From contig MU006027.1 in the NCBI GenBank assembly GCA_010093745.1, positions 1-64,000 on the forward strand: DNA of 64,000 nt, in the 5' to 3' direction. The stretch is from Piedraia hortae CBS 480.64. Taxonomy: Eukaryota. This document shows positions 38,945-42,448 of this stretch, one piece after another. Every line of letters begins with the position of its first letter. The stretch's first letter is position 1. Position numbers and translations under genes: made by a program. Below the pieces are notes generated by a model, which saw only the letters and a list, made by a program, of their open reading frames with translations, searched no databases and had not been told where the DNA came from.

Positions 38945-40246
38945 CCACCAGACGAGGCAGCACCTAGTCTCGGTGAAATCCCAGATTGCTAATGAATCAT
39001 GCGACTCCCAGCTGGCTCCTGTCCACCATGTGCTGCTTTTCCCTTGCAGTGCTTGTAGCCGGGCATAAAACCCCTTTGCAATAGCGTCACGACACGGTCA
39101 ATTTGAATGGGCTATGGTTTTTGAAAGCCACTAATCTGGGAATCGTTTTTGAGGCCAGGCCCAACACCTTGAGCACTTTGCAACTGTGTCCACCATGGCT
39201 TTCTGCACAGTCGCATCCGTCAGGTAATATGGACTGTCGTAAAACACCTTGTGCAGGCCTGGTATACCTGCCACACCGAATTCACGCACGCCTGGTAGAC
39301 GAGGGATGCCGTAGGGATTCGAAGGGTCCACATTGTACGCAGACGTATTTGGTGGGATTCCCATATTTTCCATGATCGCGGTCCAGTAATAGCTGCTGTT
39401 AAATTGTCCAAAGATGGTCCGTTCTTCGTGGATGAAATCCATGAAATCGAGATTTTGTTGCTTAGGTGGCACTGTCATCAACAGTTTCGATGATTTGATC
39501 AATCTTCGTCCCCTCAGCGTGTCCACAAGCACATCCACTCTATTGTTGGTGCGGGTCATGCGTGCTACGCACGACCCAAACAGAACGCTGTTCCCCAATT
39601 CTTCCAGGGCTTTATCTTAGAGCTGCTGGTTGTCATGCGCTGCTGTGGTGGTGAAGCCGTTTGTGAGAATGGCAGTCACGGTGGCTGCTGAAAAGTATTT
39701 GAGTCGATAAATCGACAGCTGATCCAACGAGTTGCCACCACCTTGGCTATAAAGAAAATCTAGTGGTGCTATTGCATTCAGGTTAAACTTGGCAAAAAAT
39801 TCTCCCCATGTCAGCAGCAAATCACTGGGCACTTGCAGGGGCAGATCGAATCCGCTGGACAGGTACGTAAAACGCGCAAGTTGCGCAAGATTTTCAACGA
39901 GGGCAGTGCTAATTGCTTCGTCTCCTGTTAATCCATTTGAGGGTACTAATGAGGCATTTGCAAAGAAGACGTTGACCGTGTTCCTGGCGGGCGCAGAAAA
40001 TGGTGCCAGAGGCACGTCAAAGTGCGCCAGATAATCGCTCACAGCATCCGACTAATTCTTTGATAATAATACGCCGTAATCGACTGATCTGCCAGAAGAG
40101 TCTCGATAAGTTTCAACGTGGCCCCCAAGACGGTTCTGTTGTTCAATCAACGTTACGCTGTATCCCATCTGCTTCAATCGAATGGCTGAATAAGTCCCAC
40201 TGGAACCTCCTACTGCACATGTCACCACGAATAGTCTGAAGGACAT
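38945..40246 (-). pseudogene. Disrupted flavin-dependent amine-oxidase-family oxidoreductase
   Basis: [26 protein letters not shown], then a frameshift near 40050, in-frame TAA at 39617, and frameshifts near 39178 and 39089; C-terminal GFYARLQALQG..TWWTGASWESHDS. Confidence 0.85.
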
Positions 40247-40809
40247 TTTGCTAGTCTCTTGACAGGTCCTTTCTTGTACGGAATACGGAACACGGCCAGG
40301 AAGTTTTAAACGCGGTTATTACAATCAATCGTTCCGCCACATGGGCCTCGTCCCATAACGGCAAGTGGGCTGAAATGTCTCGGAACAGCCTTCGTCAGGA
40401 TCGTGAACGACCTCTGTTCCAGCAGAGTTAATTGGACGTTTCACTGACGCCGGGATGGTACATATCAGTTTGCCAGCACAACACTAGAACATGCTCATTT
40501 GAGCAACACATTAAGATATCCAACAGTATTGAAGGCCCTCCCAACTATGTTGGGAGGGAACGCTTGTGGGGAAGAGATGTCAAGAATGAAGATTGAAATG
40601 GTTCGTCTTCTGTCATCTTTCGGAGAGTACGATTAAAGTAGACATGACACCGGCTTAAGGCTCGGCGATTCCGACGTCGTCCATGCGCCAAATCGGTGAC
40701 TGTCTCCTGAATCGCTTTAAGTTAAGCGATATGTACCACCATGCAGTCGCGGAAATGTCCCCGCTGTAATCCGCTAGAGGCCTGCATTGACCTGGTATCT
40801 AAAAACTTG

Positions 40810-41756
40810 TTAAATGATGTCCCACGCGTCTTCGGCGGCATGACAAAATTTGCTGCAAGCAACACTCGCGGAGAGGCTATAATTGCTAATGCTTATAGCA
40901 TCTTTCTTGTATTGATCCGCAAAGGTGTCGGCGCCTTTGGCCATAGCTCCGACAAAGACGCAAATGCTCGTTTTGGGGCTCAGATCGGCAATGTATTCAC
41001 GAACGCGCACCAGCGGAGCATCGAAGGAGAGTGTGACTTTGTGGCAATTCGGCGGTAGGTGGTCAGTGATGGGGTTCTTGATAACCTTTAGCAATTTTTC
41101 CGGGCTTGTTGTTGACCTGATACTGAGGTTATGGAGCAGCTGAACCATGAGACCGGCGAAGCGCTTAAAAGTTCTTGGCAGGCGCACCGTTGGGCTAACC
41201 TCTATAAGCACACCCTTTGACGTATGAATATAGATTTGCAGTTTGCCAGCCTTGTTGAGGGGCGAATCGAGAAGGGTTAGAAGGCATTGGTGCGTGATGT
41301 CGGGACGTGCCTCGCTAATATCACGATTCATCTTTCGCATGACTCCAATGTGCTCATCACTGTTGAGGAGCGAGTATTTGGATGTGTCCTTGCCATTTTT
41401 GCTTAAGCCGCCGTGTGCTCTATACGTCTCCAAGCTAGCATTTGAAAGCACCACAATGAGGCGCTTGGTATCTTTGTCGCTCGCGGGAATCGGACGTGCT
41501 TGCTCTGCAGTCATTTGCGGAAGTATTGGCGGTGGAAGAGATTGGGTTACAGTTCCTATGTTTCCACCAATCCATGATTAGTCATGAGCTCTTGTTGAAA
41601 GAGCGAACGTTCGAAATGGATCTGTTGAAGAATGAAAAACTGGAAATGAGACTGACTTGTTCTTTTTGTGGCTCTGCCACTCAGCGAAGGTCTCCGGTCA
41701 ATGTAACTTGCCCCCTGAGCGTCAAGCTGCGATCGCTCCGGTTTATCTACAGCCAT
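40810..41756 (-). CDS. NEP1: 18S rRNA pseudouridine N1-methyltransferase Nep1/Emg1
   Basis: [75 protein letters not shown]. Exon 1 is 41756-41657; intron 41656-41556. Confidence 0.96.
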
Positions 41757-42108
41757 TGCAAAGTGGTGAGAGAGTGTTGTTTTGGTCCTAGCCCGGCCTT
41801 TTCGATGCAGCAATCAAGAAGGGTGGTCGTCTTTGTAGGATTGAAAATTTGGGGTTGACCTTGACTCCTTGGCGCGCACGGCCGCTAGCGGCCGTTTGTC
41901 GGGAACCTCGACGCGCGTGCATGCAGAAGAATGTTGACATCAATCAACGTAGACTATCTCGTAGACTATGTAAACGATAGAAAATTCCTGAAGAGATACT
42001 AAGCCGAGGCATACTATGCTTTCCAATTTGCTTCGCAGCGAGCATCGCACTTTTTGAATCTATGTCATATGGTCATATTACAATGTCTGACCTATTGCAT
42101 TGTCAAAT

Positions 42109-42189
42109 GTCGAGGTGTCGGAGTGGTTAACGAGTCAGACTTGAAATCTGATGCCTTCGGGCGCGCAGGTTCGAATCCTGTCCTCGACG
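42109..42189 (+). tRNA. tRNA-Ser(UGA), intronless, long variable arm
   Basis: Acceptor GTCGAGG/CCTCGAC, anticodon arm TCAGA-CTTGAAA-TCTGA, variable arm GCC-TTCG-GGC, T-loop GGTTCGAATCC, discriminator G, T-run terminator at 42191. Confidence 0.96.
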
Positions 42190-42448
42190 CTTTTTTTTGC
42201 GTTCTCACGAGTTTGCACAAAATTTGTTTCTCTCTCCGTATGTCGCAGGTGAAATACGGAGAAAGCGGTTTGCGTCAATTGACGAAGGTCAGTAATCGCC
42301 AAATTTTCCGCTCAACACAATTGGCGAACAAACGCTACAGGCTGCAGTCTTGGTTTCGAACAAACTCGCGGTGGACGTTAAGTCCAATCACATACTCTAT
42401 CAACTGAGCGATGTTTGGGTGGTAGTGGTGAGACGCATTTGAGAATTG

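What the first reader, a model, noticed from the sequence alone, without database searches (positions are those of the whole stretch)
41556..41656. NEP1 intron carries two Nep1-binding motifs in hairpin loops: candidate substrate-mimic autoregulation
Seen: the intron is 101 nt, about twice the 39-55 nt typical of this window. On the coding strand it contains UUCAACA twice. One copy is the loop of a perfect hairpin, GCUCUU-UCAAC-AAGAGC (41604-41588), ending 6 nt before the branch sequence CUAAU (41581-41577). The other is in a weaker stem, UCU-UCAAC-AGA (motif at 41629-41624). Further pairings (UUUCCA/UGGAAA, AUCCAU/AUGGAU) could enclose the branch point and abut the 3' splice site, and an alternative hairpin UCAUGA-CUAA-UCAUGG puts the branch point in a loop. 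If retained, the intron reads in frame to a stop that is the acceptor UAG itself. Established: yeast Nep1 binds (C/U)UCAAC, its 18S rRNA target lies in GACUCAACAC, it binds this motif as a hairpin loop, and it is a homodimer with two RNA sites. Inference: excess Nep1 binds its own pre-mRNA, blocks splicing and routes the transcript to NMD, as some ribosomal proteins do. I do not know of this being described.
Basis: partly seen in the sequence, partly recalled or inferred. Interest (0 to 1): 0.82.

Follow-up and report, generated by a model that had tools for sequence, protein, structure and literature searches.

The report
Nep1-site hairpins in NEP1's own transcript
The gene for the ribosome-assembly enzyme Nep1 carries, in its own intron beside the branch point, a small hairpin that displays the enzyme's known RNA target sequence, and related fungi keep such hairpins in this gene, which suggests that the enzyme controls its own production.

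Summary
The gene is NEP1/EMG1 of Piedraia hortae, on the minus strand. RNA contigs confirm the 101-nt intron, both spliced and retained. It holds GCUCUU-UCAAC-AAGAGC 6 nt before the branch sequence, and a weaker second UCAAC stem.

The window alone proves little: TTCAACA is not enriched and the intron fold is ordinary. I fetched 80 metagenomic NEP1 loci and grouped their first introns into 39 clusters. In 15 clusters, a UCAAC-loop hairpin of at least 4 bp lies 42-78 nt before the 3' splice site. Shuffles predict 0.23. The stems differ between lineages and covary, while the loop and the flanking U and A stay fixed.

Such hairpins also occur in intron 2, where they overlap the branch point, and in the 3'UTR with ACAAC or GCAAC loops. 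They lie almost only on the sense strand.

The loop matches the published Nep1 consensus (C/U)UCAAC, which Nep1 binds as a stem-loop.

Best reading: Nep1 senses its own level through these rRNA mimics, chiefly by blocking splicing. Binding and regulation are untested. Most lineages, though not this window, keep an in-frame AUG at the intron's end, so the NMD step is doubtful in general.

I found no paper describing this.

The parts
41757..41821 (-). 5'UTR of NEP1. The RNA contig ends at 41821, followed by adapter letters.
   Evidence: record 5 covers 41656-41821; loose end at 41821 reads as Illumina adapter
41657..41756 (-). NEP1 exon 1: 33 codons plus 1 nt, ending in the basic stretch ...[13 protein letters not shown](R). 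The last Arg codon is split by the intron (phase 1).
   Evidence: The same exon type (..Y[IVL]GRRPSSSGRD[TS]KR.) lies upstream of orthologous introns.
41556..41656 (-). Intron 1, 101 nt, GTCAGT...CTAAT...TAG. It is found both spliced and retained in RNA contigs.
   Evidence: joint skipping 101 nt, depth 722; unspliced contig 41526-41685, depth 315; the bin covering intergenic 41816-42116 has depth 12.4
41621..41631 (-). Upstream motif copy, UCU-UCAAC-AGA, with a 3-bp stem. It is weak and is not in the MFE structure.
41588..41604 (-). Main hairpin GCUCUU-UCAAC-AAGAGC. The loop is 41598-41594 and the core UUCAACA is 41599-41593.
   Evidence: Homologous position and covarying stems in orthologues. 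CM R1 hit of 25.5 bits.
41577..41581 (-). Branch-point-like CUAAU, 6 nt after the hairpin and 26 nt (motif start) from the 3' splice site.
41573..41575 (-). Intronic ATG that is out of frame with exon 2. In most orthologues an ATG in the last 40 nt of the intron is in frame.
41556..41558 (-). Acceptor UAG. It doubles as the stop of the exon-1 reading frame if the intron is retained.
40810..41555 (-). NEP1 exon 2: the EMG1/NEP1 methyltransferase domain, with the stop at 40810-40812. The RNA-binding arginines R88, R129, R132 and R136 (yeast numbering) are conserved.

Best explanation
The hairpins are cis-regulatory copies of the Nep1 target in 18S rRNA (helix 35 loop, ..CUCAACA..). Evolution has placed them in NEP1's own transcript. 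When free Nep1 exceeds what pre-ribosomes absorb, the Nep1 dimer binds the UUCAACA loop of the hairpin just upstream of the branch point. In this window that is 41604-41588, 6 nt before CUAAU. A second, weaker site 30 nt upstream could occupy the dimer's other RNA site. The bound protein hinders branch-point recognition and U2 snRNP recruitment, so intron 1 stays in. In this species the retained RNA ends the exon-1 frame at the acceptor UAG and yields no full-length Nep1. This is negative feedback. Shown here: the intron is real and is both spliced and retained in RNA. The hairpin exists. Hairpins with this loop are conserved with covarying stems at the same place in orthologous introns, and also in intron 2 and in 3'UTRs. 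They are specific to the sense strand. The loop equals the published Nep1 consensus. This Nep1 keeps the RNA-binding arginines. Inferred: that Nep1 is the factor that binds, that binding blocks splicing, and that the retained RNA is unproductive or degraded.
For: (1) Orthologous introns. Of 39 clusters of first introns (59 introns defined in 78 sources), 15 carry a TCAAC 5-nt loop closed by a stem of at least 4 bp. One thousand dinucleotide shuffles give a mean of 0.23 and a maximum of 3. For stems of at least 5 bp the figures are 14 against 0.074. (2) Position. The motif starts 42-51 nt before the 3' splice site in most lineages (61 and 78 in two). By my arithmetic, the hairpin ends 6-14 nt before a branch-like motif in 11 of 12 stem types. 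(3) A count without picking the best stem. Of all 24 TCAAC copies lying 38-80 nt from the 3' splice site, 15 have stems of at least 4 bp. Outside the NEP1 upstream region only 14 of 862 TCAAC copies do, in 583,576 nt (Fisher p 8e-19; 8 of 17 and p 8e-10 after collapsing the eight L001-L011 clusters). (4) Covariation. On 26 distinct hairpins the covariation score is 0.643, against 0.221 for shuffles (0 of 500 reach it) and at most 0.227 for slid partners. Inner pairs run UA14/AU10/CG2, CG14/UA6/GC4 and UA12/CG9/AU2/UG1. The U and A flanking the loop never covary. RNAalifold independently returns the same 5-bp hairpin. (5) Relocation. Lineages without an intron-1 hairpin have one in intron 2, overlapping or next to the branch point: L028/29 gucggcau-UCAAC-augcugac, L052, and L063 with two hairpins 30 nt apart. 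(6) Strand and region. NCAAC-loop hairpins, counted sense versus antisense: intron 1, 21 vs 0. Upstream fragments, 5 vs 0. Intron 2, 4 vs 0. 3'UTR, 17 vs 1. Flanks, 16 vs 13. All 17 extra CM hits in the loci lie on the NEP1 sense strand. G-U pairs occur in both alignments. (7) Of 37 non-redundant loci with an intron-1 model and at least 250 nt of 3' flank, 30 have at least one such hairpin. (8) Literature, read as passages. Yeast Nep1 binds C/UUCAAC best in the loop of a stem-loop. In the crystal, GGGC-UUCAAC-GCCC is bound as a stem-loop, and the dimer can bind two RNAs (PMC3064781). RNAs with U instead of pseudouridine bind with nM affinity but are not methylated (PMC2853112). The authors took efficient RNA binding to need the dimer, and wild-type ScNep1 dimerises weakly, with Kd about 134 uM (PMC3045603). 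(9) R88, R129, R132 and R136 are conserved in the window's protein. (10) The unspliced contig has depth 315 against 722 for the spliced joint. The bin covering intergenic 41816-42116 has depth 12.4.
Against: No binding or regulation experiment exists, and nothing here measures the response to Nep1 level. The window's whole-intron fold is not unusual (z -0.66), and its second motif has only a 3-bp stem. 24 of 39 intron clusters lack an intron-1 hairpin of at least 4 bp. Four loci (L043, L044, L054, L055) have no hairpin at all, and three more (L022, L034, L070) have only imperfect ones. The 3'UTR loops are ACAAC, GCAAC or CCAAC, so they lack the U that Nep1 flips into its active site. An in-frame AUG at the end of intron 1 in 24 of 38 clusters shows that the intron-containing RNA is probably translated in most lineages. 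That fits a 5'UTR operator at least as well as NMD. Contig depths are one figure per contig and are a poor measure of the retention level, as the tool itself warns. I could not compare retention with other introns, because 7 records were not shown. The loci are unnamed metagenome contigs. The clusters are not phylogenetically independent: eight share one stem type. Alignment A1 was built from the best-stemmed YCAAC copy in each locus, which inflates the percentage paired.
Confidence: 0.62

Rival explanations
1. The hairpins act mainly as a translational operator. An mRNA that starts inside intron 1, or retains it, encodes a shorter Nep1 from an intronic AUG. The hairpins then lie in its 5'UTR, and bound Nep1 blocks scanning rather than splicing. 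This could coexist with splicing control.
For: There is an in-frame, open AUG in the last 40 nt of intron 1 in 24 of 38 clusters, against 4 and 0 in the other two frames. Many annotated orthologues start there ('MAD....GTQTQSLPPP'). Contigs L026, L031 and L066 lack intron 2 but begin inside intron 1 and include the hairpin region. The 3'UTR hairpins cannot act on splicing.
Against: In the window the intronic ATG is out of frame, and the unspliced RNA contig runs on into exon 1, so this is retention and not an internal start. The intron-2 hairpins lie inside the coding region and overlap the branch point, where a 5'UTR operator makes no sense. I cannot show that L026, L031 and L066 are RNA-derived or that they have complete 5' ends.
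Confidence: 0.17
2. A different RNA-binding factor, not Nep1, recognises the U-NCAAC-A loops. The match to the Nep1 consensus would then be a coincidence.
For: Binding was not tested. The 3'UTR loops carry A, G or C where Nep1's target U sits. The upstream second hairpins of L001-L011 have CACAAC or CGCAAC loops.
Against: Enrichment and a sense-strand bias were seen only in NEP1 transcript regions. The flanks carry 16 sense and 13 antisense hairpins, and the 64-kb window gave one weak CM hit (15.3 bits). The invariant core U-U-C-A-A-C-A equals the consensus and the rRNA context CUCAACA. [quoted passage not shown]
Confidence: 0.12
3. The hairpin is a protein-independent structure that only helps or tunes splicing of a long intron, for example by shortening the effective distance between the splice sites.
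For: The hairpin-bearing introns are long for these fungi, 101-379 nt. The short introns of 48-89 nt lack it.
Against: A purely structural role does not explain an invariant loop sequence with freely varying stems. It also does not explain the same loop in 3'UTR hairpins, or the intron-2 hairpins that bury the branch point in a stem.
Confidence: 0.05
4. Chance: two copies of a common heptamer and a fortuitous 6-bp stem.
For: TTCAACA is not enriched in the window, 10 found against 10.45 expected. The intron fold z-score is -0.66.
Against: as set out above.
Confidence: 0.01

Closest known systems
Splicing autoregulation of yeast ribosomal protein genes (RPL30, RPS14B, RPL22B, RPS9A/B)
   Same: An rRNA-binding protein binds a mimic of its rRNA site in its own pre-mRNA. 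[quoted passage not shown] Source: PMC7732827, passages and reference list read.
   Different: Nep1 is not a ribosomal protein. It is a transient assembly factor and pseudouridine-N1 methyltransferase. The element is a minimal 5-7-nt loop on a freely varying stem, often in two copies. It sits just upstream of the branch point rather than at the 5' splice site, and it has moved between intron 1, intron 2 and the 3'UTR. Nothing here is experimentally shown.
Translational autoregulation of the ErmC 23S rRNA methyltransferase
   Same: An rRNA methyltransferase is proposed to bind a loop in its own mRNA and repress its own synthesis (PMC11721399 discussion citing Breidt and Dubnau 1990, passage read). 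I recall that E. coli KsgA is also reported as autogenously regulated, but no call checked this.
   Different: That system is bacterial, acts on translation, belongs to a different enzyme family and involves no splicing.
Nep1 binding site in 18S rRNA (helix 35 loop) and the crystallised 14-mer GGGC-UUCAAC-GCCC
   Same: It has the same hexamer UUCAAC presented in the loop of a short stem. A follows the motif, as in rRNA (..CUCAACACG..).
   Different: The hairpins lie in mRNA or pre-mRNA, not rRNA. They presumably contain U rather than pseudouridine, so they would act as a substrate analogue: the U-containing RNA tested bound with nM affinity without being methylated. The predicted free form closes U-A and leaves a 5-nt loop.
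NOP56 pre-mRNA / snoRD86 box C/D snoRNP autoregulation
   Same: A ribosome-biogenesis factor senses its own availability through a cis-acting RNA element in an intron of its own gene. I saw only the title, in the reference list of PMC6600647.
   Different: That element is a whole snoRNA that assembles into an RNP and controls alternative splicing and NMD in human cells. Its details are recalled, not read.

Membership tests
Nep1/Emg1 RNA-binding site | Hexamer (C/U)UCAAC | tested here: met
   UUCAAC is present at both window sites. U-[U/C]-CAAC-[A/G] is present in all 26 aligned intron hairpins. The consensus was checked in PMC3064781 and PMC2853112.
Nep1/Emg1 RNA-binding site | Motif presented in the loop of a stem-loop | tested here: met
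   The MFE structure of the intron contains the 6-bp hairpin. RNAalifold gives the same consensus hairpin. Covariation score is 0.643 against 0.221, with 0 of 500 shuffles reaching it.
Nep1/Emg1 RNA-binding site | Physical binding by the Nep1 dimer | not testable with these tools
   This needs EMSA, ITC or CLIP. The only indirect evidence is that the RNA-contacting arginines R88, R129, R132 and R136 are conserved in the window's protein.
Nep1/Emg1 RNA-binding site | Target U (pseudouridine) at the second position of the hexamer | tested here: inconclusive
   Met in the intron hairpins, where the loop is UCAAC in 23 of 26 and CCAAC in 3. Not met in most 3'UTR hairpins, whose loops are ACAAC, GCAAC or CCAAC; only 1 of 16 is UCAAC.
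Autogenous splicing control by rRNA mimicry (RPL30 type) | Element lies in the protein's own pre-mRNA and resembles its rRNA site | tested here: met
Autogenous splicing control by rRNA mimicry (RPL30 type) | Element placed where it can interfere with a splice signal | tested here: met
   The hairpin ends 6 nt before CUAAU in the window. It ends 6-14 nt before a branch-like motif in 11 of 12 stem types (my arithmetic). It overlaps CUGAC in intron 2 of L028/29 and L052.
Autogenous splicing control by rRNA mimicry (RPL30 type) | Unspliced RNA accumulates | tested here: inconclusive
   An unspliced contig (depth 315) lies beside the spliced joint (depth 722) in the single RNA data set. There was no comparison with other introns or other conditions.
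Autogenous splicing control by rRNA mimicry (RPL30 type) | Splicing responds to the protein's level | not testable with these tools
   This needs over-expression or depletion experiments.
Any Rfam family | Match to a curated covariance model | tested here: not met
   Over 41300-42300 only the tRNA (62.4 bits) passes. Two chance-level hits have E about 7.

The most novel reading that the evidence does not exclude
NEP1 of filamentous ascomycetes carries a portable 'Nep1 sensor': one to three minimal hairpins that display U-NCAAC-A. During evolution this module has moved between intron 1, intron 2 and the 3'UTR. Yeast Nep1 dimerises only weakly, and its RNA binding is thought to need the dimer. 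Tandem hairpins 26-57 nt apart could therefore read out Nep1 concentration cooperatively. In most lineages the switch would not simply destroy the message. It would choose between a long isoform, whose exon-1 peptide ends in a KR-rich, NLS-like motif completed by the splice, and a short isoform begun at a conserved in-frame AUG at the intron's 3' end.
Probability: 0.3. Interest if true: 0.9.

Novelty: new variant of a known kind. Interest (0 to 1): 0.82.

Why it matters
Feedback by rRNA mimicry is textbook for ribosomal proteins. I found no report of it for a eukaryotic rRNA-modifying enzyme or assembly factor. Nine full-text searches were run. Two surveys of conserved fungal RNA structures were checked for the terms NEP1 and EMG1. 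Rfam was searched as well.

If it is true, the supply of an essential small-subunit assembly factor would be tuned after transcription to the demand from pre-ribosomes. [quoted passage not shown]

It would also provide a very small natural RNA-protein switch: a 5-7-nt loop on any stem. The protein-RNA structure is already solved, so the idea can be tested directly by EMSA and reporter assays.

It also bears on annotation. The two competing gene models for fungal NEP1, a long form with an upstream exon and a short 'MAD...' form, probably reflect two real transcript or protein forms.

Tried and rejected
1. Whole-genome context: no genome is held for this window, so I could not scan the rest of the P. 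hortae genome for other UCAAC hairpins or for its 18S rRNA.

2. RNA runs: the look-up of sequencing runs listed no holder on record as RNA. The single run X1, whose RNA kind is a guess, behaves as RNA, with GT..AG joints and an adapter at the 5' end. I had one read-laying run, and 7 records were not shown. I therefore could not compare retention of this intron with that of its neighbours.

3. Whole-intron structure: the MFE is not better than shuffles (z -0.66). They could not be tested by comparison, because the introns are not alignable outside the hairpin.

4. Window-level motif enrichment: none.

5. Rfam: nothing relevant.

6. Earlier findings of this scan: none relevant, by words or by sequence.

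7. Taxonomic naming of the metagenome loci: I attempted only a rough nearest-named-protein comparison (against the names). Nep1 is too conserved for this, so I make no firm claim about classes.

8. All intron-2 lengths are multiples of 3. I put this down to how the 80 best loci were ranked: a single unbroken tblastn segment scores higher. I do not treat it as biology.

9. The first Fisher test used a wrong total (22 instead of 24). One search gives the corrected values.

Basidiomycetes and yeasts were therefore not examined.
Full report
WHAT IS THERE

The region lies in a minus-strand gene. Exon 2 (41555-40810) matches the EMG1/NEP1 methyltransferase family (PF03587, E 1.7e-76). It is 100% identical to the 281-aa 'essential for mitotic growth 1' protein of Piedraia hortae CBS 480.64.

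Every sequence detail in the finding is correct:
- There are two TTCAACA copies, at 41629-41623 and 41599-41593.
- The perfect hairpin GCUCUU-UCAAC-AAGAGC lies at 41604-41588.
- CUAAU lies at 41581-41577, 6 nt after the hairpin.
- The weak stem UCU-UCAAC-AGA lies at 41631-41621.
- If the intron is retained, the exon-1 frame stays open until the acceptor UAG.

RNA EVIDENCE

One public run holds the locus. Its contigs behave as RNA. One joint skips exactly the 101 nt, with GT..AG ends on the minus strand (depth 722). A separate 160-nt contig runs collinearly from exon 1 through the intron into exon 2 (41526-41685, depth 315). The exon-1 contig ends at 41821, followed by adapter letters. The bin covering intergenic 41816-42116 has depth 12.4.

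So the intron is real, and a sizeable share of the transcripts retain it. The depth ratio gives roughly 30%, but the tool warns that contig depths are crude. The other introns between 37 and 46 kb are 55, 78, 53 and 51 nt. I could not see whether they too have unspliced contigs.

THE WINDOW ALONE IS NOT CONVINCING

TTCAACA occurs 10 times in the window against 10.45 expected. The intron's MFE of -17.2 kcal/mol has z = -0.66 against shuffles.

I fetched 80 metagenomic loci encoding close Nep1 relatives, 69-90% identical, and anchored them on the conserved T-Q-S-L-P-P-P.

A phase-1 intron sits at the same place in nearly all genomic loci. Upstream lies a short exon whose peptide ends in a basic motif (...GRRPSSSGRD[TS]KR....VKRP...KRKRS). 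The last Arg codon of that motif is completed by the splice. Five contigs (L016, L023, L024, L025, L027) show the exon 1-exon 2 junction without the intron, so this splice is used in nature.

I could define introns in 59 of 78 sources. They fall into 39 sequence clusters. In 15 of the 39 clusters a TCAAC loop is closed by a stem of at least 4 bp. One thousand dinucleotide shuffles give a mean of 0.23 and a maximum of 3. For stems of at least 5 bp the figures are 14 against 0.074.

The motif starts 42-51 nt before the 3' splice site in most lineages, and at 61 and 78 nt in two. The stems differ between lineages:
- GCUCUU/AAGAGC in the window.
- (A/G)CCUU/AAGGU in eight clusters, L001-L011.
- CUUCUU/AAGAAG in L041 and L045.
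- UUGAU/GUCAA in L032 and UUGAU/AUCAA in L058.
- CUUAU/AUAAG in L059.
- AUUAU/AUAAU in L026.
- AGCU/AGCU in L046.
- GACAU/AUGUC in L071.
- ACAAUUCUU/AAGAAUUGU in L040.
- GAAUUAU-CCAAC-AUAAUUC in L030, L031 and L067.

A count that involves no choice of stem gives the same picture. Of all 24 TCAAC copies lying 38-80 nt from the 3' splice site, 15 have stems of at least 4 bp. Elsewhere in the loci only 14 of 862 TCAAC copies do, in 583,576 nt on both strands (Fisher p 8e-19). After collapsing the eight related clusters the figures are 8 of 17, p 8e-10.

On an ungapped alignment of 26 distinct hairpins, the covariation score is 0.643. Shuffles give 0.221 (0 of 500 reach the observed value) and slid partners give at most 0.227. 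Pairs change on both sides, for example UA14/AU10/CG2 and CG14/UA6/GC4. RNAalifold independently returns the same 5-bp hairpin.

The loop CAAC, and the U before and the A after the 5-nt loop, are invariant or nearly so. They do not covary. This suggests the core U-U-C-A-A-C-A is read as sequence.

One caveat applies: I chose the best-stemmed YCAAC copy per locus for this alignment, which inflates the percentage paired. The count of 15 of 24 above avoids that choice.

SECOND HAIRPINS

Upstream of the main hairpin, 13 of 19 clusters have a further hairpin of at least 4 bp with CAAC in its loop. Shuffles give 2.83 +/- 1.47, with a maximum of 7. Eight of these 13 are one family (UGCUG-C[A/G]CAAC-CAGCA). 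Others include UCGAU-CCCAAC-AUCGA (L030, L067), UUCUUU-CUUCAACA-AAAGAA (L040), and UGCAGU-UUUCAACC-ACUGCA plus AUGAUC-CUCAAC-GAUCAU (L041, L045).

In most lineages the CAAC of the nearest second hairpin lies 26-57 nt upstream of that of the main hairpin. It is 83 nt in one lineage, and in L046 and L071 the only further hairpin of at least 4 bp lies more than 160 nt upstream. This is my arithmetic. In the window the second copy lies 30 nt upstream but has only 3 bp.

THE ELEMENT IS NOT CONFINED TO INTRON 1

I built a covariance model from the 26 hairpins and searched 320,116 nt of loci and window. It found the intron-1 sites and 17 further hits in the loci. All 17 lie on the NEP1 sense strand. 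The 64-kb window gave one further weak hit (15.3 bits).

Four of the 17 lie in a second intron, between PDITHQ and CLLTLL, in lineages whose intron 1 lacks a hairpin:
- L028/29 has gucggcau-UCAAC-augcugac, whose 3' arm contains the branch sequence CUGAC.
- L052 has gcau-UCAAC-augc, followed directly by ugac.
- L063 has two hairpins 30 nt apart.

Eleven of the 17 lie 64-217 nt after the stop codon. Examples are CCGCGAU-ACAAC-AUCGCGG, ACGACGAU-ACAAC-AUCGUCGU, UGUUUUU-GCAAC-AAGAACA and CAUCAU-CCAAC-AUGAUG. These 3'UTR hairpins covary too: 0.812 against 0.248, with 0 of 500 shuffles reaching it.

A plain scan of 59 non-redundant loci for NCAAC loops with stems of at least 4 bp gave these sense and antisense counts:
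- Intron 1: 21 sense, 0 antisense.
- Upstream fragments without an intron model: 5 and 0.
- Intron 2: 4 and 0.
- First 300 nt of the 3'UTR: 17 and 1.
- Exon 1 plus 5' region: 3 and 0.
- Coding sequence: 3 and 0.
- Flanks (166,318 nt): 16 and 13.

Of 37 loci with an intron-1 model and at least 250 nt of 3' flank, 30 have at least one hairpin. L022, L034 and L070 have imperfect ones at the usual place. L043, L044, L054 and L055 have none.

WHY NEP1 IS THE LIKELY LIGAND

I read the relevant passages of three papers.
[quoted passage not shown] In the crystal, GGGC-UUCAAC-GCCC is a stem-loop whose six loop bases make base-specific contacts, and the dimer can hold two RNAs (PMC3064781).
- The rRNA site is ..GACUCAACACG... 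RNAs with U instead of pseudouridine bind with nM affinity, and the U-containing RNA tested was not methylated (PMC2853112). For the archaeal enzyme CAAC is the fixed core, and A or U is favoured just 5' of it.
- The authors took efficient RNA binding to need the dimer. Wild-type yeast Nep1 dimerises weakly, with Kd about 134 uM (PMC3045603).

The window's Nep1 keeps R88, R129, R132 and R136, in yeast numbering.

MECHANISM

The hairpin lies just upstream of the branch point. It ends 6 nt before it in the window and 6-14 nt before it in 11 of 12 stem types. In intron 2 of two lineages it overlaps the branch point. These distances are my arithmetic. Together with the retained-intron RNA, this placement points to interference with branch-point recognition, as with L30 on RPL30 (PMC7732827).

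This step is inference. So is the fate of the retained RNA.

A complication is that an in-frame, open AUG lies in the last 40 nt of intron 1 in 24 of 38 clusters, or 17 of 31 after collapsing. The other two frames have 4 and 0. Many database models start there. Three contigs lack intron 2 but begin inside intron 1 (L026, L031, L066).

So in most lineages an intron-containing or intron-initiated mRNA probably encodes a shorter Nep1 without the basic exon-1 peptide. The hairpins would then lie in its 5'UTR. Splicing control and translational control may therefore coexist. The window's species is an exception, because its intronic ATG is out of frame.

COMPARISON AND NOVELTY

The logic matches autogenous control by rRNA mimicry, as in the ribosomal proteins RPL30, RPS14B, RPL22B and RPS9 and the bacterial methylase ErmC.

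The new points are:
- the protein class, a eukaryotic rRNA-modifying assembly factor;
- the minimal loop-only recognition with free stems;
- the tandem copies;
- the movement of the element among two introns and the 3'UTR.

Nine full-text searches were run. I also made term checks in two surveys of conserved fungal RNA structures (PMC5640933 and PMC8216456) and searched Rfam. None gave a description of it. Supplements of those surveys were not examined.

VERDICT

The mechanism is plausible but untested.

Noticed in passing
L023, L028/29, L031, L035, L046/48, L052, L064, L068, L072 (64-217 nt after the NEP1 stop where measured); L038, L051, L057; L036; L077/78; L025; L058: There is a second class of conserved hairpins in the NEP1 3'UTR, with loops ACAAC, GCAAC or CCAAC between an invariant U and A. 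The stems covary (0.812 against 0.248 for shuffles). There are 17 on the sense strand and 1 on the antisense strand. The window's own 3'UTR shows none.
   Followed up: partly
L028:606-638, L029:680-712, L052:2125-2157, L063:3275-3323, L049/L050 intron 2: In lineages without an intron-1 hairpin, a UCAAC hairpin sits in the second NEP1 intron (between PDITHQ and CLLTLL). Its 3' arm overlaps or abuts the branch sequence CUGAC. L063 has two hairpins 30 nt apart.
   Followed up: partly
Last 40 nt of intron 1 in the loci; window 41573-41575: An ATG in frame with exon 2 and open to it is present in 24 of 38 intron clusters, against 4 and 0 in the other frames. It explains the two competing database models, the long form with an upstream exon and the short 'MAD...GTQTQSLPPP' form. 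In the window the ATG is out of frame.
   Followed up: partly
window 41657-41700 and exon 1 of the loci: The exon-1 peptides are poorly conserved except for a basic C-terminal motif (KRTR, KRIR, KRPR, KRKRS). The last Arg codon of this motif is completed by the splice. By recollection of classical nuclear localisation signals it looks NLS-like. This was not tested.
   Followed up: no
L026, L031, L066: These contigs lack intron 2, which the genomic loci most like L026 and L031 (L030, L067) have. Yet they start inside intron 1 and include its hairpin region. This could mean a transcription start inside intron 1, or broken assembly of retained-intron RNA.
   Followed up: no
intron 2 of 51 loci: Every intron-2 length is a multiple of 3, from 45 to 117 nt. 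This is most likely an artefact of keeping the 80 best tblastn matches, since in-frame introns give one long segment. It is probably not biology.
   Followed up: no
window 42109-42190 (+): A tRNA-Ser(TGA) gene (ARAGORN; Rfam tRNA 62.4 bits) lies about 290 nt upstream of the NEP1 transcript start, on the opposite strand.
   Followed up: partly
window 39920-41555: One RNA contig runs unbroken from NEP1 exon 2 through its 3' end to 39920. There, ORFs on the minus strand suggest the next gene. The two transcripts may overlap, or the contig may merge them.
   Followed up: no
window 41254-41259 and about 41370-41380 (minus strand, coding): CUCAAC occurs twice inside the NEP1 coding sequence. One copy is in the codons for the conserved ..SPLNKAG.., which read CUCAACAAGG. 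Neither is closed by a stem of at least 4 bp in my scan.
   Followed up: partly
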